Origin: Clostridia bacterium
GTDB taxonomy: Bacteria > CBDUZB01 > JAGLHV01
Direction of reading: 5' to 3'
Length of the DNA: 64,000 bases
Assembly: GCA_030595925.1 (NCBI GenBank)
Contig: JAUVLC010000001.1
Span: 1,476 to 65,475, forward strand
Shown: in pieces, positions 39,133 through 62,631 of the stretch
Numbering within the stretch: position 1 is the stretch's first letter
Layout: each line of letters starts with the position of its first letter
Position numbers and translations under genes: made by a program
The notes under the pieces: model-generated
The model's database searches: none
Told to the model about the DNA's origin: nothing
Seen by the model: the letters and a program-made list of their open reading frames with translations, nothing else

Positions 39133-39990
39133 TTATATTTCATTTTCCCCTATAACCATTTCCTTTACTTTTTCTTTTTTCTCTTCTTCAGAAACAGCGA
39201 AAATAAGAAAATATTTAGTATGAGCCGGTTTCTCAGTACGAATTATTTCATGAATCTTTTTTATAGTATAATCATCCACCTTTTTTACAGGTAAAGGAAC
39301 TTTAACCGTAAAACAATGGGCTAAATCCACTTTTTCTTCAATAATACTATCCATTCCCACCAGTGAGCCTACTCCAATCTCAAAATCCTTAAAAGGAAAA
39401 TGGTGCTCTATGATTTCAGGTTCTACACCGGTAATTATTTTTAAATAAAGTTTTAATCCTCTTAACGTTCCTCTCCACTTATAAATCTCCACCGCATTTT
39501 TTATTAATTTCCTTTTCTTTTCTTCTGTCCAGTTCTCATCCAAAACCATAGCCATCCACGAAGCAAGCCAGGGAAGAAAAACAGAAGGTGCATAATAAGG
39601 ATGAAAATAGGTATGTATATTATCGAGTTTTTCCTGAACACCAGAAAGCAAATGTTGAAAAATCCACAGATAATCCTTTAGAAAATTCTTTCCGTTAAAT
39701 TTTTGCTCGTGAAATATTGCCGGCAACCAGTCAAGATAACTTTTCCGACAAATAGTAACATCTATTGTTTTATCTAAATTTACTTTCTCTCCAACCTCTG
39801 GTTTCTGCCTAAGCACAGTATTTATTACCCGATGACTTTCCTCATAATAAACATCACCCAGCTTAAAACCGGCATTGTTCATCACCTTTTTTGCCCGTTC
39901 CAAAGACAAATTAATCAGATTAGGAACAATTACCTTTTCTTTTTTAAAGTCCTTTTTTGAAATATTTACTGCTATAGCCATTTTATTCAC
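39133..39990 (-). CDS. PASTA-domain protein with a phage P2 gpI-like tail/baseplate domain
   Basis: N-terminal PASTA-like segment (VIVPNLINLSLERAKKVMNNAGFKLGDV...IDVTI); the C-terminus (WRGTLRGLKLYLKIITGVEPEIIEH) is reminiscent of the tail protein I family; tentative. Confidence 0.35.
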   Translation of the reverse strand: MNKMAIAVNISKKDFKKEKVIVPNLINLSLERAKKVMNNAGFKLGDVYYEESHRVINTVLRQKPEVGEKVNLDKTIDVTICRKSYLDWLPAIFHEQKFNGKNFLKDYLWIFQHLLSGVQEKLDNIHTYFHPYYAPSVFLPWLASWMAMVLDENWTEEKKRKLIKNAVEIYKWRGTLRGLKLYLKIITGVEPEIIEHHFPFKDFEIGVGSLVGMDSIIEEKVDLAHCFTVKVPLPVKKVDDYTIKKIHEIIRTEKPAHTKYFLIFAVSEEEKKEKVKEMVIGENEI

Positions 39991-40221
39991 CTCCGTTTAT
40001 TAGCGTAGAGCAAAGAGCTTAGAGCATAGTATGATTCAGGATACAGGATTCATGATATAAAATACAGGATGTACTATACATGATTCACAATATAATACAA
40101 ATAACAATTACAAATTTTAAATTTAGATACTGTCGTAATCGTAGTGTCCGCCATTAAGCATAGACGAATAAAACATAATAAAATTTGATTTCAAAATAAA
40201 ACCCAAGTACAAATTTATAAA

Positions 40222-41955
40222 TTACTTTCCTTTATAAATATCAAAATCTTTTCCATAAGGATTGTCATCCCAACCATCTGATGAACCAGGACTTATATCT
40301 TTTGTATCTTTTCCTTTTTTCCCTTTTTCCTGTCTACTATTAGATAGACCTAACCAGTGTTTTTTATTATGAGGATCTCCATACCAAAATACAGGAGAAC
40401 TATTCTCTTGTATTTTTATAGTGTCTATAGCATTTTTTTTAAATGTAGAATGGGAAATTTCAATTCCGTCTGCTTTTTTATAATCTTCACTAAAAGCATT
40501 TCCATGTCTTTCTACACGAACTTTTATATGTTTGGAATCTTTACCATTTAATTTATCCCAAGCATAATATTTATCAAGCCTTTCTCCTGGACTTTTCCCT
40601 GCCTCAATGTGAGCACTCAAAGTTGCACCCACAGGTTTATAAGCACCATTCTTTTTTTCTAAAACAACGCATATCCACTCCCAGTCATGCTCGTGCGATT
40701 GTCTAATTCCAAGAAACCAATGATTCCATTGATTAAGTGGATAATAGTAAAAACACTCTATTACTGCATAAGGTCTGCCATTTTTATCTTTTTTGTTTGT
40801 AACAACATGATAATAAACAATAGGAGGATAGTCTTTAAAATTTCCTTTTTCTACCTCAAATTTATTCCAGTTATCGTCCCATTTCTCTTTATTCTTATAG
40901 TCTTCCGGACGTTTATAAAGATTCCATTTTTCTGCATTCATCTCAATATTATCATCCCAATTATCTGACTTTAATCCATTCCAATTATCAGGTTTTGGTG
41001 GAAATTTAACCTTAAAATCATACTTTATAGGATGAACATACGCTTCTTTATCTAATCTAATTGTAGGAAGATACTCCAAAGGATCAAGTTTAATTTCTAT
41101 TTTCAGATTGTGCTGCATTCCCGTTTTACATTTTTTTTGTACAACTTCTTTATGAGGAATAAGAATTTCATCACCGAAATAAATAAGGTCTGGATTTGGA
41201 TGTTCCGATTTAAATTTATTTTTTTGACAATCATAGATTCTTTTCCAATCACTAAACCCATATCTTTTTGCTATACTTGATAAATTTTTACCTTCTTCGA
41301 CTGAATGAATTTTACTGATAAATGTTACTTTACATTCTCCAGAATCAATATCTCTGATATCAATAAAACCATTACTATCAAGTTCACCCTCTTTCTCAGA
41401 ACCATCAGGAAGAATTATTAAGTATTGTTTATTAGATACTGCTTGGTTATCATCTTTATCAAATAACTTAATTTTAATCCAACCAATTTCTATTTTTAGA
41501 TTATGTTCTGTTCCCGTTTTACATTTTTTTTGTACAACTTCTTTATGAGGAATAAGAATTTCATCACAGGGATAAATAATATCCGGATTTGGATGTTTTG
41601 ATTTAAACTTATTATTTTGACAATCATAAATTCTTTTCCAATCACTAAACCCATATTTTTTTGCTATACTTGATAAATTTTCACCTTTTTTGACCGACTG
41701 AATTTCACTAATAAATGTAATTTTACATTCTCCATAATCAATATCTTTGATTTCAATAAAACCATTACTATCAACTTTACCCTCTTTCTCAGAACCATCA
41801 GGAAGAATTATTAAATATTGCTTATTAGATACTGCCTGATTATCGTTTTTATCGACCAAATTAATTTTAATCCAATTTTTCTTGGGAGGTTTTTTGACTA
41901 TAATATCTTTTATTTCTTTATTAGTATTTGATTTTAATACTTTTCCATTACTCAT
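40222..41955 (-). CDS. candidate PAAR-linked effector: 2x(beta-sandwich + LysM) with a C-terminal NLP/NPP1-like toxin domain
   Basis: Two LysM repeats (GENLSSIAKKYGFSDWKRIYDCQNNKF...DEILIPHK); the C-terminal domain has YYYPLNQWNHW...QSHEHDWEWICVVL matching the NLP pattern Y.PKD...GHRHDWE.VVVW; its start is 11 nt after the PAAR stop. Confidence 0.55.
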   Translation of the reverse strand: MSNGKVLKSNTNKEIKDIIVKKPPKKNWIKINLVDKNDNQAVSNKQYLIILPDGSEKEGKVDSNGFIEIKDIDYGECKITFISEIQSVKKGENLSSIAKKYGFSDWKRIYDCQNNKFKSKHPNPDIIYPCDEILIPHKEVVQKKCKTGTEHNLKIEIGWIKIKLFDKDDNQAVSNKQYLIILPDGSEKEGELDSNGFIDIRDIDSGECKVTFISKIHSVEEGKNLSSIAKRYGFSDWKRIYDCQKNKFKSEHPNPDLIYFGDEILIPHKEVVQKKCKTGMQHNLKIEIKLDPLEYLPTIRLDKEAYVHPIKYDFKVKFPPKPDNWNGLKSDNWDDNIEMNAEKWNLYKRPEDYKNKEKWDDNWNKFEVEKGNFKDYPPIVYYHVVTNKKDKNGRPYAVIECFYYYPLNQWNHWFLGIRQSHEHDWEWICVVLEKKNGAYKPVGATLSAHIEAGKSPGERLDKYYAWDKLNGKDSKHIKVRVERHGNAFSEDYKKADGIEISHSTFKKNAIDTIKIQENSSPVFWYGDPHNKKHWLGLSNSRQEKGKKGKDTKDISPGSSDGWDDNPYGKDFDIYKGK

Positions 41956-60916: not shown

Positions 60917-61002
60917 TGTTTCTTCCTTTCATAAGCTTTTTTCGGGTCGAATCCTTCTAGTTCTCTAGGACAAGTTAATCCAACCCCCTACAACTCTTAT
61001 AG

Positions 61003-62631
61003 TCACCCTTCTACCCATCTTCCTATTGACGGTCTATCTTCCGGAGGTTTAACAAAATGAATATCTTTTATATCTATTCCTGAATCTTGTAATTTCTGAA
61101 AAATTCTTTTTAACTTCTTTATATTCCTTCTTTCCATATCTTTTTCTATCTCTTTATATAAAAATTGCTTCTGCCTAAGTATTTTTGAAAATTTACTCAA
61201 CGCTTCCCAAGAAAAATTTTTATCATCCAATTTAATTTTGCTATCAATAAACACCTCTTCTACCTTGCGTAACTTTTCTATCGCTTCGAACAAATTATCC
61301 ACTTTATCTAAACTAACACTTACTATTGCTTTGGCTACATTATTCACAGAAAACTCCATAAACAATTTCTCATGTTTTATTTTTAATTTTCTAAGACGTT
61401 TCTGTTCATTTACTTCTATTATTTGCTCACCTTGTTTTAAATGTTGCCTTTTTCTTTCTTCATTTAAAATAAACCTTGTTGGAAGTCTGTCATCCTCTCT
61501 TAAAATTATTTCCCTTCTGCCAGAATCTTTAAACCTATTTTTCTTTAATTTTATCAATAAATTTTGCAATTCAAGTTTGTTACGATTTATTGCGTTTTTA
61601 ATATAATTACTTTTAGAATCATATTTTTCAGCAACCATAAAATACAATAAAGACTTTCTCATAAATTCAATCTTTTTATCAATGTTTTGCGACTGAAAAT
61701 ATCTTCTTTGGAGAGCTTTACGATAAAATCTTAAACCCCTGTCATAATAAATTTGTGCTCTTCTTTCCATTTTATTGATCGCAAAAAATTCATTTACATC
61801 CTTTTTTAAATACAAATCCTTTTTTGAAAATGTCAAATTTTCATTAAAAATCAAACTTCTTTTTTCTATAATTTTATTAACTTTATTTACTATCTTTTTA
61901 ACTAAAGGTTCTACCTGAATATCATTATCTAAATTTAAATCTGACATTCCTTCAACACTATCTATCTCCACATCATGTGTCATTAAATACTGTGCTAATT
62001 CCGGGTTATTAGCTAACTCTTTATAAATATATGGTTCAATTAGACTTTCGAGCATTGTTTTAATTCTTAAAAATCTTATATTGTCTTCTTGTTCTTTGTC
62101 TTGTGCTTTAATTTCAATATTGTCTATCTTTATTAAAGGTTCATTGGACTTGCTTCTTGCAAAAACTTCCGTTAAATATTTTTCCATATTTTCTGCTTGT
62201 TTTTCCAAATCTTGTGTAGAGGAAAATCCCTTCATTGCTAATTCTCCTGCTTTTCCTTTCTGTTGGGCAATATGGGTTAATTCATGTCCTATCAATGCTT
62301 TCCCACCAGTTGTTTCCGGATTATATTTATCTTGAGCAAAATATATATCTTTTCCATAAGTAAATGCTTCTGCATTTAAATTATTTGCTGTATCTTGTGA
62401 TGTTTTATCTGTATGTATTTTTACATCACCCATTTTAAATCCCATTATCGGCTCAAACTTTTTTCTAAGCTCAGAACTAAGAGGAGTCCCATAACTTTTT
62501 CTAATCCGTTCTATCGGGTCAGAAACTGTTTCTTTTAAAAGTGTGGTAGAATCAAGCATCATATAATCATGATAGGCCCAACCTTCTGCTATTTTCTTAC
62601 TTAATTCTTTCATTGTTTCTTCTTTGTTCAT
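61003..62631 (-). CDS. DUF4157 domain protein with a long C-terminal coiled-coil-rich extension
   Basis: VKIHTDKTSQDTANNLNAEAFTYGKDIYFAQDKYNPETTGGKALIGHELTHIAQQKG; 542 aa. Confidence 0.8.
   Translation of the reverse strand: MNKEETMKELSKKIAEGWAYHDYMMLDSTTLLKETVSDPIERIRKSYGTPLSSELRKKFEPIMGFKMGDVKIHTDKTSQDTANNLNAEAFTYGKDIYFAQDKYNPETTGGKALIGHELTHIAQQKGKAGELAMKGFSSTQDLEKQAENMEKYLTEVFARSKSNEPLIKIDNIEIKAQDKEQEDNIRFLRIKTMLESLIEPYIYKELANNPELAQYLMTHDVEIDSVEGMSDLNLDNDIQVEPLVKKIVNKVNKIIEKRSLIFNENLTFSKKDLYLKKDVNEFFAINKMERRAQIYYDRGLRFYRKALQRRYFQSQNIDKKIEFMRKSLLYFMVAEKYDSKSNYIKNAINRNKLELQNLLIKLKKNRFKDSGRREIILREDDRLPTRFILNEERKRQHLKQGEQIIEVNEQKRLRKLKIKHEKLFMEFSVNNVAKAIVSVSLDKVDNLFEAIEKLRKVEEVFIDSKIKLDDKNFSWEALSKFSKILRQKQFLYKEIEKDMERRNIKKLKRIFQKLQDSGIDIKDIHFVKPPEDRPSIGRWVEG

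What the first reader, a model, noticed from the sequence alone, without database searches (positions are those of the whole stretch)
39133..62631. Dispersed phage-tail / eCIS-like baseplate-spike module lacking sheath, tube, capsid and terminase in the window
Minus-strand genes encode, in transcription order:
- two DUF4157 proteins (61003, 60128);
- a LysM tube-initiator-like protein (59348);
- a gpD/gp27-like hub (57928);
- a gp5/gpV-like spike (56106) and a second spike (53890);
- a gp25/gpW wedge (48092) overlapping a ~1000-aa baseplate-J protein (45097);
- a fibre-like protein (42723), PAAR (41967) and a P2 gpI-like protein (39133).

The V-W-J(-I) order echoes the phage P2 tail operon. 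DUF4157 is an eCIS-associated domain.

Unlike canonical Afp/PVC or tailocin operons, each gene sits in its own repeat-flanked slot and is interleaved with T9SS, toxin–antitoxin and other genes. No sheath, tube, tape-measure, capsid or terminase gene lies in the 64 kb, and all of these genes are co-directional.

The AAA+ ATPase at 29708..31261 could be the Afp15-like assembly ATPase.
Basis: partly seen in the sequence, partly recalled or inferred. Interest (0 to 1): 0.85.

Follow-up and report, generated by a model that had tools for sequence, protein, structure and literature searches.

The report
Contractile injection system cluster with swappable cargo
The flagged genes are the baseplate, spike and effector part of a complete phage-tail-like contractile injection system whose sheath and tube genes lie just past the window edge, and the cluster is unusual because it is stretched by strain-variable toxin cassettes and seven-base repeat arrays.

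Summary
The heptamer-repeat "slots" and the interleaved T9SS and toxin-antitoxin genes are also real.

The module is not sheath-less or dispersed.
- The ORF at the window edge (62829-64000) is the C-terminal part of a roughly 730-aa protein.
- In a sister contig (about 93% DNA identity) that protein is directly preceded by tube, sheath, collar-fibre, tube and sheath genes.
- Downstream, a Cis13-like 502-aa gene and an FHA-VWA-AAA+-DUF1257-DUF2997-u144 set are syntenic with the baseplate genes in related clusters from Myxococcota, Planctomycetota and Spirochaetota MAGs.
- The AAA+ therefore belongs to the system.

The backbone is a canonical eCIS-lineage cluster. Its closest solved baseplate is Streptomyces CIS-Sc. 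It is interrupted at five places by cassettes:
- an extra gp5-like spike with cargo;
- PAAR with an effector (NLP-like here, Tae4 amidase in the sister);
- T9SS-type proteins;
- toxin-antitoxin pairs.

The island from about 26 kb to beyond 64 kb is about four-fold less diverged at synonymous sites than the flanking housekeeping genes.

Verdict: a new variant of a known kind, of moderate interest.

The parts
62829..64000 (-). 3' part of a roughly 730-aa tape-measure-position gene (Cis14 candidate). The ORF runs off the window.
   Evidence: The frame is open to base 64000. The C-terminus ...FCREYMKKKKMHDI matches the sister 730-aa protein that sits between tube and DUF4157. Identical JGI contig L007 keeps it open for 412 aa. 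There is no Pfam hit. It contains in-frame heptamer arrays.
61003..62631 (-). DUF4157/eCIS_core protein a (HExxH motif, variable coiled-coil C-terminal half)
   Evidence: Pfam E 3e-26. The C-terminal half differs from the sister orthologue, with 79% identity over 51% of the length.
60128..60916 (-). DUF4157/eCIS_core protein b
   Evidence: Pfam E 2e-23. It is 91% identical to the sister, dN/dS 0.17.
59348..59968 (-). Cis7 tube initiator (CIS_tube + LysM)
   Evidence: Pfam 4e-37. PDB matches: 9gtp Cis7 1e-19 and AlgoCIS 4e-19.
57928..58977 (-). Cis8 hub (gp27/GPD-like N-terminal part of a split VgrG)
   Evidence: NCBIfam VgrG_rel positions 5-348, 5e-55. dN/dS 0.06.
56106..57527 (-). Auxiliary gp5-like spike 1 with a variable C-terminal extension that carries a shared roughly 60-aa adaptor-like domain
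   Evidence: Phage_base_V 4e-15. Conserved with the sister only to about aa 306. The C-terminal domain is shared with PAAR and LysM577.
54840..56026 (-). Spike-1 cargo cassette: a 274-aa protein (55202-56026) overlapping a 121-aa multi-TM protein (54840-55205). The sister carries different genes here.
   Evidence: No family hits. The sister has PG_binding 227 aa, 444 aa and 363 aa instead. The AF2 model is unusable.
53890..54699 (-). Canonical gp5-like spike 2
   Evidence: Phage_base_V 2e-18. It is 96% identical to the sister, dN/dS 0.06. A spike gene follows the hub in distant relatives.
51716..53698 (-). NHL-repeat protein with a T9SS C-terminal sorting domain. This cassette is absent from the sister.
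   Evidence: Pfam NHL and Por_Secre_tail. The sister has a 43-bp gap here.
49989..51518 (-). PorV/PorQ-family outer-membrane barrel with a lineage-specific C-terminal domain
   Evidence: NCBIfam PorV_fam 189 bits. The homologue with the same C-terminal domain ends the compact relative cluster L001.
48606..49433 (-). Protein with a C-terminal PG_binding_1 domain, conserved in the sister just upstream of gp25
   Evidence: Pfam 4.5e-11. dN/dS 0.21.
48092..48511 (-). Cis9 (gp25/TssE-like wedge)
   Evidence: Pfam 9e-27. Present in 77 of 81 related loci.
45097..48117 (-). Cis11 baseplate J (about 1006 aa, TIGR02243)
   Evidence: PDB 9gtp (CIS-Sc Cis11) E 7e-86. No phage record covers more than 32% of it.
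44011..44747 (+). AF2212-like antitoxin plus a split PIN toxin, inserted between J and the fibre-like gene
   Evidence: Pfam. Relatives have a median 74-bp J-to-I gap.
42723..43661 (-). Fibre-like secreted protein A (signal-peptide-like N-terminus, CTHRC1_C domain). The N-terminal 130-180 aa are shared with 34771-35616 and with sister paralogues.
41967..42497 (-). PAAR tip protein with a C-terminal roughly 60-aa beta-rich extension
   Evidence: PAAR_motif 6e-21 and a weak Big_1 hit. The extension is homologous to the spike-1 C-terminus.
40222..41955 (-). PAAR-linked effector candidate: two copies of (adaptor domain + LysM) followed by an NLP/NPP1-like C-terminal domain with an SHEHDWE motif
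   Evidence: LysM 2e-7 and NPP1 E 0.004. A 393-bp tandem duplication is present. Four of 12 distant relatives hit NPP1. The sister has Tae4 here.
39133..39981 (-). Cis12 (P2 gpI-like domain plus PASTA)
   Evidence: Tail_P2_I 8e-17. TIGR02242 102 bits and CIS12_fam.
36946..38454 (-). Conserved 502-aa peripheral baseplate protein (Cis13/Cis19-like N-terminus). It lies outside the finding's range.
   Evidence: Homologues follow Cis12 in 61 of 81 loci. CIS13_fam N-terminus 1.7e-10. Weak match to tCIS Cis19.
34771..36763 (-). Insertion zone holding a 23S_rRNA_IVP four-helix protein (36365-36763), a T9SS-CTD protein (35754-36368) and fibre-like protein B (34771-35616)
   Evidence: The IVP gene sits in a different slot in the sister.
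33706..34275 (+). MazE/AbrB antitoxin plus ParE-type toxin
   Evidence: Pfam.
33101..33436 (-). Zn-ribbon plus FHA protein
   Evidence: NCBIfam FHA models. Homologues occur in 46 of 81 related loci, directly after c502.
31522..32661 (-). Exported VWA protein with a C-terminal TM helix and a cytoplasmic Zn ribbon
   Evidence: Pfam VWA. TIGR03436 112 bits. Found in 34 of 81 loci. Sequence shown.
29708..31261 (-). AAA+ ATPase (Cis15/Afp15-position candidate)
   Evidence: PF00004 4.5e-29. Homologues at about 56% identity lie downstream in 10 related loci. dN/dS 0.11.
27236..29532 (-). DUF1257 (29128-29532), DUF2997 (28931-29137), u144 (28361-28795, a paralogue of the tube-adjacent 122-aa gene), a pentapeptide-repeat protein (27680-28357) and a 143-aa protein (27236-27667)
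   Evidence: DUF1257 and u144 homologues lie inside related clusters.
25381..27104 (.). Island boundary zone with the largest heptamer arrays (317, 417 and 107 bp), a 66-aa island gene (26299-26499) and a TPR gene on the + strand
   Evidence: Identity to the sister drops from 88-93% to 72-76% here. dS rises from 0.35 to 0.68-0.73 and then to saturation.

Best explanation
**What it is.** The region is the central and distal part of one complete, chromosomally encoded contractile injection system (CIS) of the non-T6SS eCIS lineage.

**Backbone order on the minus strand.**
- Just outside the window: sheath and tube.
- A tape-measure-position gene whose 3' end is at 62829-64000.
- Two DUF4157 proteins.
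- Cis7 tube initiator.
- Cis8 hub.
- gp5-like spike.
- gp25.
- Baseplate J of about 1000 aa.
- gpI-like Cis12.
- A Cis13-like 502-aa protein.
- FHA, membrane-anchored VWA, AAA+ ATPase, DUF1257, DUF2997 and u144.

**Lineage-specific insertions into the backbone.**
- A second spike with a C-terminal adaptor-like domain, plus downstream cargo.
- A PAAR protein with the same domain, plus a downstream effector.
- T9SS-type exported proteins with a PorV-family barrel.
- Two toxin-antitoxin pairs.
- An IVP gene.

These units are separated by heptamer tandem arrays.

**Inferred mechanism.**
- The hub trimer is capped by one of two alternative spikes and the PAAR tip.
- Effectors encoded next to those genes ride on the spike/PAAR through the shared roughly 60-aa/LysM modules. 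This is the logic of T6SS vgrG/PAAR auxiliary modules.
- The DUF4157 proteins are additional cargo or processing factors.
- The AAA+ supports assembly or loading.
- FHA plus the transmembrane VWA protein couple firing or assembly to an envelope signal.

**Inferred purpose.** The system is used for antagonism. The sister strain carries peptidoglycan-targeting cargo with candidate immunity genes. This strain carries an NLP-like toxin candidate.

**Shown versus inferred.**
- Shown: gene identities, backbone synteny, sheath and tube in the sister, cargo replacement, purifying selection.
- Inferred: the loading mechanism, the role of FHA/VWA, and the mode of delivery. I lean toward cell-associated, T6SS-like firing (about 45%), against released eCIS particles (about 40%) and intracellular CIS-Sc-like action (about 15%).
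For: **Family assignments:**

**Compact relative L001** (45% identity in J) has this order: DUF6760, sheath, tube, 804 aa, eCIS_core x2, 72 aa, CIS_tube, GPD, gp25, J, P2_I, 509 aa, PorV-like.

**Sister contig** (about 93% DNA identity).
- Sheath, tube, collar, sheath, tube and a 730-aa gene lie directly upstream of the DUF4157 pair.
- c502 through FHA, VWA, AAA, DUF1257, DUF2997 and the 144-aa gene lie downstream, up to rimP.
- The window's edge ORF equals the 730-aa C-terminus.

**Presence in 81 related loci**.

| Gene | Loci with a homologue |
|---|---|
| gp25 | 77 |
| P2_I | 75 |
| c502 | 61 |
| FHA | 46 |
| sheath | 37 |
| VWA | 34 |
| u144 | 19 |
| DUF1257 | 12 |
| AAA | 10 |

**Selection.** dN/dS is 0.03-0.34 for 14 island genes.

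**Not a phage protein.** J is a CIS-type protein: PDB 9gtp (CIS-Sc) E 7e-86, and no phage record covers more than 32% of it.

**Cargo swap between the two strains**.
- After PAAR: LysM577 here, Tae4 (1.8e-18) plus a 152-aa gene in the sister.
- After spike 1: 274 aa plus 121 aa here, 227, 444 and 363 aa in the sister.

**Shared adaptor-like domain.** It occurs in the PAAR C-terminus, the spike-1 C-terminus and twice in LysM577.

**Precedent.** An eCIS-lineage cluster with toxin-immunity pairs and DUF4157 toxins acts as a T6SS in haloarchaea (PMC11566945).
Against: - Sheath and tube are seen only in the sister contig, not in the source genome itself. That contig ends about 3.7 kb beyond the window.
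- No cap protein (Cis16/DUF4255) was found in the window or in the sister loci examined.
- The tape-measure assignment rests on position alone.
- Effector identities are weak: NPP1 E 0.004, and the AF2 models have pLDDT 53 and 40 with no fold match.
- No immunity gene follows LysM577.
- The fibre-like proteins have signal peptides. This is unexpected for CIS fibres assembled in the cytoplasm.
- PorV relatives in metagenomes pair with T9SS cargo, not with CIS genes.
- The delivery mode cannot be read from sequence.
Confidence: 0.85

Rival explanations
1. It is a true sheath-less, dispersed baseplate-spike module. On this view a remnant or a new non-contractile spike-delivery device is scattered among unrelated genes.
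For: No sheath or gp19 tube family hit occurs in the 64-kb window. Many unrelated genes are interleaved.
Against: - The edge ORF continues out of the window and equals the gene that follows tube and sheath in the sister.
- The backbone order is identical to compact complete clusters.
- Core genes are under purifying selection.
- All parts are contiguous and co-directional.
Confidence: 0.04
2. It is the tail region of an ordinary or defective prophage.
For: The tail-like families gpV, gpW, gpJ and gpI occur in P2 order. A tyrosine recombinase lies at 5003-5890. The island is much less diverged than its flanks.
Against: - No capsid, portal, terminase or lysis genes occur in the window or in about 66 kb of sister contigs.
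- The recombinase is XerC/D-like and sits among housekeeping genes that are syntenic in the sister.
- DUF4157, AAA+, PAAR and the TIGR02243-type J are CIS markers.
- The best phage hits cover only 24-32% of J, at 23-34% identity.
Confidence: 0.03
3. It is a classical extracellular CIS. Particles assemble in the cytoplasm, are released by lysis, and bind targets with fibres. The T9SS, PorV, PG-binding, FHA and VWA genes would be unrelated passengers or regulators.
For: - DUF4157 is the eCIS core domain (PMC8213781).
- There is a Cis13-like protein.
- The sister has a collar-domain fibre gene next to the sheath genes.
- PorV relatives elsewhere pair with T9SS cargo, not with CIS genes.
Against: - The sister strain has candidate effector-immunity pairs.
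- FHA and membrane VWA are conserved inside the cluster in dozens of relatives.
- The closest solved relative, CIS-Sc, is not extracellular.
- The PorV-like subfamily with its special C-terminal domain is seen only next to CIS genes.
Confidence: 0.4
4. It is an intracellular CIS-Sc-like system. It would fire inside the producer under stress and cause regulated cell death, rather than injecting other cells.
For: The baseplate J and Cis7 are most similar to CIS-Sc among solved structures. FHA/VWA could transmit envelope stress.
Against: - PAAR and two spikes come with strain-variable toxins.
- The sister has a Tae4 peptidoglycan amidase with a downstream small gene.
- Both features fit inter-cellular antagonism.
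- No CisA homologue was identified.
Confidence: 0.15

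Closest known systems
Streptomyces coelicolor CIS-Sc (type IId eCIS locus; PDB 9gtp)
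   Same: It gives the best solved-structure matches: Cis11/J at E 7e-86 and Cis7 at 1e-19. It shares the backbone of sheath-tube, Cis7, Cis8, Cis9, Cis11 and Cis12.
   Different: - J here is about 1000 aa against 652 aa.
- The host is diderm, with T9SS-type genes.
- VgrG is split, and there is an extra spike.
- PAAR-effector cassettes and the FHA/VWA/DUF1257/DUF2997 genes are present.
- No CisA was detected.
- CIS-Sc acts inside the producer.
Haloarchaeal CIS acting as a T6SS (Halogeometricum borinquense; PMC11566945)
   Same: It is an eCIS-lineage cluster associated with toxin-immunity pairs and DUF4157 proteins, and cargo is thought to ride on the spike.
   Different: The host is an archaeon with an S-layer envelope. 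No PorV, PG-binding or FHA/VWA genes are reported there. Membrane anchoring here is untested.
T6SS auxiliary vgrG/PAAR-effector-immunity modules (canonical T6SS-i)
   Same: The layout is the same: a spike or PAAR gene with a C-terminal adaptor-like extension, followed by a variable effector and, in the sister, a candidate immunity gene. Tae4 is a T6SS amidase effector family. An FHA protein is present.
   Different: No TssB/C, Hcp, TssJLM, TssK, TssF/G or ClpV families were hit. The sheath, tube and baseplate are of the phage/eCIS type.
Afp/PVC extracellular contractile injection systems
   Same: It shares the same core families (Cis7, Cis8, Cis9, PAAR, Cis11, Cis12, AAA+) and, in the sister, more than one sheath paralogue.
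   Different: - Similarity is much lower (Pvc7 1e-5, Afp7 8e-4).
- Cargo here is placed next to the spike and PAAR genes rather than only at the 3' end.
- No DUF4255 cap was found.
- The cluster is interrupted by unrelated cassettes and repeats.
Intergenic heptamer direct repeats (TAACTGA arrays of Beggiatoaceae, Cyanobacteria and Bacteroidetes; PMC4679880)
   Same: Both are period-7 tandem arrays in intergenic spacers that often end a few bases before the ribosome-binding site.
   Different: The units are different: CAGGATA and GCTCTWA on the coding strand. There are two array types in a fixed order. Within this window they are confined to the CIS island.

Membership tests
eCIS-lineage contractile injection system (Afp/PVC/AlgoCIS/CIS-Sc superfamily) | Contractile sheath (Phage_sheath_1) and gp19-type tube genes in the cluster | tested here: inconclusive
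   They are absent from the window. They are present directly upstream of the orthologous genes in the sister contig and in relatives. The source genome beyond 64000 was not available.
eCIS-lineage contractile injection system (Afp/PVC/AlgoCIS/CIS-Sc superfamily) | Baseplate core: gp25 (Cis9), Baseplate_J (Cis11) and gpI-like (Cis12) | tested here: met
   Pfam and NCBIfam hits are above their cut-offs.
eCIS-lineage contractile injection system (Afp/PVC/AlgoCIS/CIS-Sc superfamily) | LysM tube initiator (Cis7), VgrG-like hub/spike (Cis8) and PAAR (Cis10) | tested here: met
   VgrG is split into a hub gene and spike genes.
eCIS-lineage contractile injection system (Afp/PVC/AlgoCIS/CIS-Sc superfamily) | AAA+ ATPase (Cis15) in the cluster | tested here: met
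   PF00004 at 29708-31261. Homologues lie in the same relative position in 10 related loci. Orthology to Afp15 itself was not tested.
eCIS-lineage contractile injection system (Afp/PVC/AlgoCIS/CIS-Sc superfamily) | Tail terminator/cap (Cis16, DUF4255) | tested here: not met
   No DUF4255 hit came from any island ORF scanned. It may lie upstream of the sheath genes, outside the available sequence.
eCIS-lineage contractile injection system (Afp/PVC/AlgoCIS/CIS-Sc superfamily) | DUF4157/eCIS_core proteins | tested here: met
   There are two genes, with E 3e-26 and 2e-23, and both carry HExxH.
eCIS-lineage contractile injection system (Afp/PVC/AlgoCIS/CIS-Sc superfamily) | Particles released from the cell that bind targets by fibres | not testable with these tools
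   This needs EM or cryo-ET and functional assays.
Type VI secretion system (canonical subtypes i-iii) | TssB/C sheath, Hcp, TssJLM membrane complex, TssK/F/G and ClpV | tested here: not met
   Only weak TssE- and VgrG-domain similarities were seen, below their cut-offs. No other Tss family was hit in the window.
Prophage (Myoviridae-type tail region) | Adjacent capsid, portal, terminase and lysis genes, and a J protein of phage type | tested here: not met
   None were found in the window or the sister contigs. Phage J proteins match only 24-32% of the query.
NLP/NPP1 necrosis-inducing toxin (for the 40222-41955 C-terminal domain) | NPP1 profile match and the GHRHDWE heptapeptide in an NLP fold | tested here: inconclusive
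   - The NPP1 match is at E 0.004-0.007, 17-18 bits against a cutoff of 21.
- The motif SHEHDWE is present, and H..DWE is invariant in 12 relatives.
- The AF2 model has pLDDT 53 and Foldseek found no match.
T9SS PorV/PorQ family (49989-51518) | PorV_fam profile above the curated cut-off | tested here: met
   The score is 189 bits against a cutoff of 90. The PorV and PorQ equivalog models are below their cut-offs. An extra C-terminal domain is shared only with the L001 and sister homologues.

The most novel reading that the evidence does not exclude
An eCIS-lineage machine in a diderm bacterium may work as a new T6SS-like class. On this reading:
- It is held at, or fires through, the cell envelope by a dedicated PorV/PorQ-family outer-membrane barrel (with its own C-terminal domain) and a peptidoglycan-binding protein, both encoded inside the baseplate operon.
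- It is gated by a transmembrane VWA protein and FHA proteins.
- It is armed by heptamer-array-delimited spike/PAAR-effector cassettes that are exchanged between lineages together with the whole island.
Probability: 0.15. Interest if true: 0.85.

Novelty: new variant of a known kind. Interest (0 to 1): 0.55.

Why it matters
**Cargo logic.** CIS clusters of the eCIS lineage are being mined as programmable protein-delivery devices and as sources of toxins. This locus shows such a cluster using the T6SS logic of alternative spikes and PAAR tips, with adjacent cargo that differs between strains. That arrangement gives concrete, testable spike-adaptor-effector pairs.

**Unmentioned accessory genes.** The locus belongs to a large clade of uncultured Myxococcota, Planctomycetota and Spirochaetota clusters that carry conserved FHA, VWA, AAA+, DUF1257 and DUF2997 genes. 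Full-text searches found no CIS paper mentioning DUF1257 or DUF2997, and none pairing "FHA domain" with Cis15.

**Island mobility.** The island is far less diverged than its chromosomal flanks. Whole CIS loci may therefore move or recombine between genus-level-divergent genomes.

**Correction.** The initial idea of a sheath-less module is an artefact of the window edge.

Tried and rejected
**Look-ups that failed at first.**
- Exact look-ups of window proteins failed because of start-codon choice or an unindexed NCBI contig.
- Cluster-member look-ups solved this.

**Taxonomy.**
- The source genome is not among the genome-contig hits.
- RecA gives only "bacterium" at 86% identity, then about 72% to many phyla. 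Taxonomy is therefore unresolved.

**Promoter and terminator scan.** There was no enrichment over shuffles.

**Effector identification.**
- PDB sequence searches for LysM577, the 274-aa cargo, c502 and the sister 444-aa cargo found nothing.
- The AF2 model of the LysM577 C-terminal domain had pLDDT 53, and Foldseek against PDB gave nothing below E 0.04.
- The AF2 model of the 274-aa cargo had pLDDT 40 and was unusable.
- Relaxed Pfam scans of the unknown proteins were empty.

**PorV-like protein as a general CIS component.**
- 71 metagenome loci with PorV relatives carry no CIS genes.
- The three closest follow T9SS-CTD cargo.
- The association is therefore limited to this lineage and L001.

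**Assembly chimera as the cause of the island/flank divergence contrast.**
- I considered this and judged it unlikely.
- The boundary is graded, with dS of 0.35, then 0.68, then 0.73, then saturation.
- The one closer relative I traced (RecA 94%, P0198) comes from a different sample.

**Conserved-block ends next to heptamer arrays.**
- 21 of 34 block ends lie within 50 bp of an array, against 5.8 expected.
- This mostly reflects arrays being intergenic.
- I do not count it as evidence for array-mediated cassette exchange.

Full report
**Observation**

The window has about 33% G+C, and nearly all long ORFs are on the minus strand.
- Bases 1-24 kb hold housekeeping genes: alaS, yicC, xerC/D-type recombinase, recA, ftsK, pnp, rpsO, infB, nusA and rimP.
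- From about 26 kb onward lies an accessory island.

Every assignment in the finding is confirmed:
- two eCIS_core/DUF4157 proteins;
- a CIS_tube + LysM protein;
- a GPD/VgrG-N-terminal hub;
- two Phage_base_V spikes that match the C-terminal part of the NCBIfam VgrG_rel model;
- gp25;
- a 1006-1008-aa Baseplate_J/TIGR02243 protein;
- a CTHRC1_C fibre-like protein;
- PAAR;
- a Tail_P2_I + PASTA protein.

The interleaved genes are also real:
- T9SS-type genes, namely an NHL protein and a 204-aa protein with C-terminal sorting domains, and a PorV/PorQ-family barrel;
- a PG_binding_1 protein;
- two toxin-antitoxin pairs on the + strand.

The "repeat-flanked slots" are 37 period-7 tandem arrays totalling 3.9 kb. 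All lie between 25.4 and 64 kb.

**The module is not sheath-less**

The baseplate J protein is 100% identical to a protein on a 67,724-bp NCBI contig. Its next relatives are only 48% identical or less.

A member of the same 90% cluster lies on a metagenome scaffold, TANS21-1 scaffold_1225. That scaffold is about 93% identical in DNA to the window in all core genes.

Upstream of the DUF4157 pair, this sister contig carries the following genes in order:
- sheath (cut by the contig end);
- gp19 tube;
- a 122-aa gene;
- a collar-domain protein;
- sheath (591 aa);
- tube;
- a 730-aa protein;
- a fibre-like gene.

The window ORF listed as 62829-63785 is really open to base 64000. It ends with the same C-terminus as the 730-aa protein. 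An identical JGI contig keeps it open for 412 codons. The tape-measure-position gene is therefore cut by the window edge, and tube and sheath are expected within a few kb.

The closest compact relative is L001, on a 1.47-Mb contig, with J 45% identical. Its order is DUF6760, sheath, tube, 804 aa, eCIS_core x2, 72 aa, CIS_tube, GPD, gp25, J, P2_I, 509 aa, PorV-like.

**The cluster extends downstream of the finding**

The 502-aa ORF at 36946-38454 is the orthologue of the gene after P2_I in L001 (43% identity).
- Homologues occur in 61 of 81 related loci.
- Its N-terminus resembles the NCBIfam CIS13 family (1.7e-10).
- It also weakly resembles the tCIS crown protein Cis19 (PMC8894136).

In the sister, the order downstream of c502 is 192 aa, 341 aa, FHA, VWA, AAA, DUF1257, DUF2997, 144 aa, pentapeptide protein, 147 aa, 65 aa, and then rimP.

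In related clusters from Myxococcota, Planctomycetota, Bradymonadia and Spirochaetota MAGs and from Treponema lecithinolyticum, the same genes recur next to the baseplate genes. The counts are FHA in 46 loci, VWA in 34, u144 in 19, DUF1257 in 12, and AAA in 10 at about 56% identity. The AAA count is limited by the 10-kb flanks.

u144 is a paralogue of the small gene next to the tube gene.

Full-text searches found no CIS paper mentioning DUF1257 or DUF2997. They also found none pairing "FHA domain" with Cis15, and "FHA" is absent from the four CIS papers I searched for it directly.

**Which kind of CIS**

Among solved structures, J matches Streptomyces coelicolor CIS-Sc Cis11 (9gtp) at E 7e-86. 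It matches AlgoCIS at 5e-6 and tCIS at 1.7e-4.

Cis7 matches CIS-Sc and AlgoCIS about equally, and matches PVC and Afp weakly.

Against 50,697 phage records, only the C-terminal Baseplate_J domain matches, covering 24-32% at 23-34% identity.

No capsid, portal or terminase is present in the window or in the sister contigs. The system is an eCIS-lineage CIS. It is not a prophage and not a canonical T6SS, because no Tss families other than weak TssE and VgrG domains were hit.

**Insertions and cargo**

In relatives the backbone genes abut. For example, the median J-to-P2_I gap is 74 bp, against 5.1 kb here.

The window and its sister carry insertions at five places.
- Between the tape-measure-position gene and DUF4157a there is a fibre-like gene, in the sister only.
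- Between hub and canonical spike, the window has spike 1 plus 274-aa and 121-aa genes. The sister has IVP, spike 1, and 227-, 444- and 363-aa genes.
- Between spike 2 and gp25, the window alone has the NHL-T9SS protein. Both strains have the PorV-like and PG-binding proteins.
- Between J and P2_I, the window has a TA pair, fibre A, PAAR and LysM577. The sister has a fibre-like gene, PAAR, Tae4 (1.8e-18) and a 152-aa gene.
- Between c502 and FHA, the window has IVP, a T9SS-CTD protein, fibre B and a TA pair.

Spike 1 is conserved with the sister only up to about residue 306.

A roughly 60-aa beta-rich domain is shared by several proteins:
- the spike-1 C-terminus;
- the PAAR C-terminus;
- LysM577, where it occurs twice;
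- the sister spike-1 C-terminus.

It gives weak Pfam prealbumin-like and Big_1 hits.

LysM577 contains a 393-bp tandem duplication. Its C-terminal domain has a weak NPP1 match and an SHEHDWE motif that resembles the NLP heptapeptide. Four of 12 distant relatives also hit NPP1. The structural test was inconclusive.

The layout is a spike or PAAR gene with an adaptor-like extension, followed by variable cargo. In the sister, small downstream proteins with hydrophobic N-termini follow as well. This is the layout of T6SS auxiliary modules. A haloarchaeal eCIS-lineage system with toxin-immunity pairs has been shown to act as a T6SS (PMC11566945).

**Selection and history**

Fourteen island genes have dN/dS of 0.03-0.34 and dS of 0.16-0.37 against the sister. 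Further island genes have dS of 0.21-0.52.

Thirteen syntenic housekeeping genes on the same sister scaffold have dS of 0.89-1.97 and 49-78% amino-acid identity.

The change is graded across 24.3-27.2 kb: u66 0.35, TPR 0.68, the 291-aa gene 0.73, and rimP saturated. The island therefore shares much more recent ancestry than its chromosomal surroundings. Transfer or recombination of the whole locus is the simplest reading. An assembly chimera seems unlikely but cannot be fully excluded.

**Heptamer arrays**

On the coding strand the usual spacer runs in this order:
- the stop codon;
- a (CAGGATA)n array;
- often a REP-like hairpin or a MITE-like element;
- a (GCTCTWA)n array or an inverted (ATCCTGT)n array;
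- AAGGAGG;
- the start codon.

The sister has fewer and shorter arrays. L001 and 80 other relatives have essentially none.

Comparable intergenic heptamer arrays are known in Beggiatoaceae, Cyanobacteria and Bacteroidetes, with unknown function (PMC4679880). I treat the arrays as a property of this lineage's island and not as proven cassette borders.

**PorV-like protein**

It passes the PorV_fam cut-off. It shares a distinctive C-terminal domain, including an identical AEVLEVEK stretch, with the sister and L001 homologues.

In 71 metagenome loci with more distant PorV relatives, no CIS genes occur. The three closest loci follow T9SS-CTD cargo.

Its role remains open. It could serve the T9SS cargo cassette or act as an envelope partner of the CIS.

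**Verdict**

The finding is a real and complete-looking CIS locus that was misread as sheath-less because of the window edge. It is a new variant of a known kind. The notable features are:
- spike/PAAR cargo cassettes that differ between strains;
- a conserved FHA-VWA-AAA-DUF1257-DUF2997 accessory set;
- dense heptamer arrays;
- island-level exchange between divergent genomes.

The mode of delivery cannot be decided from sequence.

Noticed in passing
window 25381-63926 (37 arrays; largest at 38673-39134, 26538-26954 and 25381-25697): Two families of heptamer tandem arrays fill almost every intergenic spacer of the island, in a fixed order. On the coding strand they are (CAGGATA)n after stop codons and (GCTCTWA)n or inverted (ATCCTGT)n just before the AAGGAGG ribosome-binding site. 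None occur in the housekeeping half. Array lengths differ greatly from the sister strain, for example 462 bp against about 0 bp between P2_I and c502.
   Followed up: partly
window 26.3-64 kb compared with 1-25 kb; sister loci L003, L005, L010 and L092: The island genes have dS of 0.16-0.52 against the sister genome. Thirteen syntenic flanking housekeeping genes have dS of 0.9-2.0 (RecA 78% amino-acid identity). The boundary at 24.3-27.2 kb is graded. This indicates recent exchange of the whole island of at least 38 kb between genus-level-divergent genomes at the same chromosomal site.
   Followed up: yes
window 27236-33436; related loci L016-L059: FHA, a transmembrane VWA protein, an AAA+ ATPase, DUF1257, DUF2997 and a u144/122-aa family are conserved parts of a large CIS clade in Myxococcota, Planctomycetota and Spirochaetota MAGs. 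In Spirochaete loci DUF1257 sits between tube and Cis12. No searched paper links DUF1257 or DUF2997 to CIS.
   Followed up: partly
window 63751-63922 and 63408-63578; 51456-51479; 43560-43628; 35515-35583: Heptamer arrays run in frame inside coding sequence. In the tape-measure-position gene they encode 7-aa repeats. In the PorV-like and fibre-like genes the GCTCTWA-type array encodes the hydrophobic core of the signal peptide (…CSMLYALC…).
   Followed up: no
window 58978-59347, 57573-57927, 49446-49988, 43662-45096, 31310-31521 and 29578-29707: The intergenic spacers also carry repeated REP-like hairpins (CGCAGGCTnnAGCCTGCGGCTACC and CCTCTCCCTTGAGGGGAGAGG). A MITE-like element with long terminal inverted repeats (ctgtcattcc…ggaatgaca) is present in at least two spacers.
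   Followed up: no
window 36365-36763; L005 12828-13226: A 23S_rRNA_IVP (four-helix-bundle, Avd-like) gene occupies different slots in the two strains. It lies after c502 here and between hub and spike 1 in the sister. The two copies are only 36% identical, so they look like independently inserted small mobile genes.
   Followed up: no
window 44011-44747 (+) and 33706-34275 (+): Two toxin-antitoxin pairs lie on the opposite strand inside the cluster. The PIN toxin is split into two ORFs (44183-44353 and 44412-44747) and is probably a pseudogene. The sister lacks the 44-kb insertion.
   Followed up: partly
window 51716-53698 and 35754-36368; metagenome loci L096-L098: The NHL protein and the 204-aa protein share a nearly identical T9SS C-terminal sorting domain. 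In unrelated metagenome contigs, the closest PorV relatives are also directly preceded by a protein with this type of CTD. This suggests a recurrent cargo-plus-PorV-like gene pair.
   Followed up: partly
window 40222-41955 (repeat at 41092-41875): The PAAR-linked protein contains a 393-bp tandem duplication (89% identity) of an adaptor-domain + LysM unit. That unit is homologous to the junction of the sister's spike-1 C-terminus and the N-terminus of its downstream 227-aa protein. The first roughly 12 residues (MSNGKV.(Q/K)SNT) are shared with the sister's Tae4 protein.
   Followed up: partly
window 1-64000: Coding-strand bias is extreme. Essentially every gene is on the minus strand, and GC skew is about -0.3 across the whole 64 kb. 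The organism is unclassified: RecA is at most 86% identical to anything named, and that hit is only "bacterium".
   Followed up: partly
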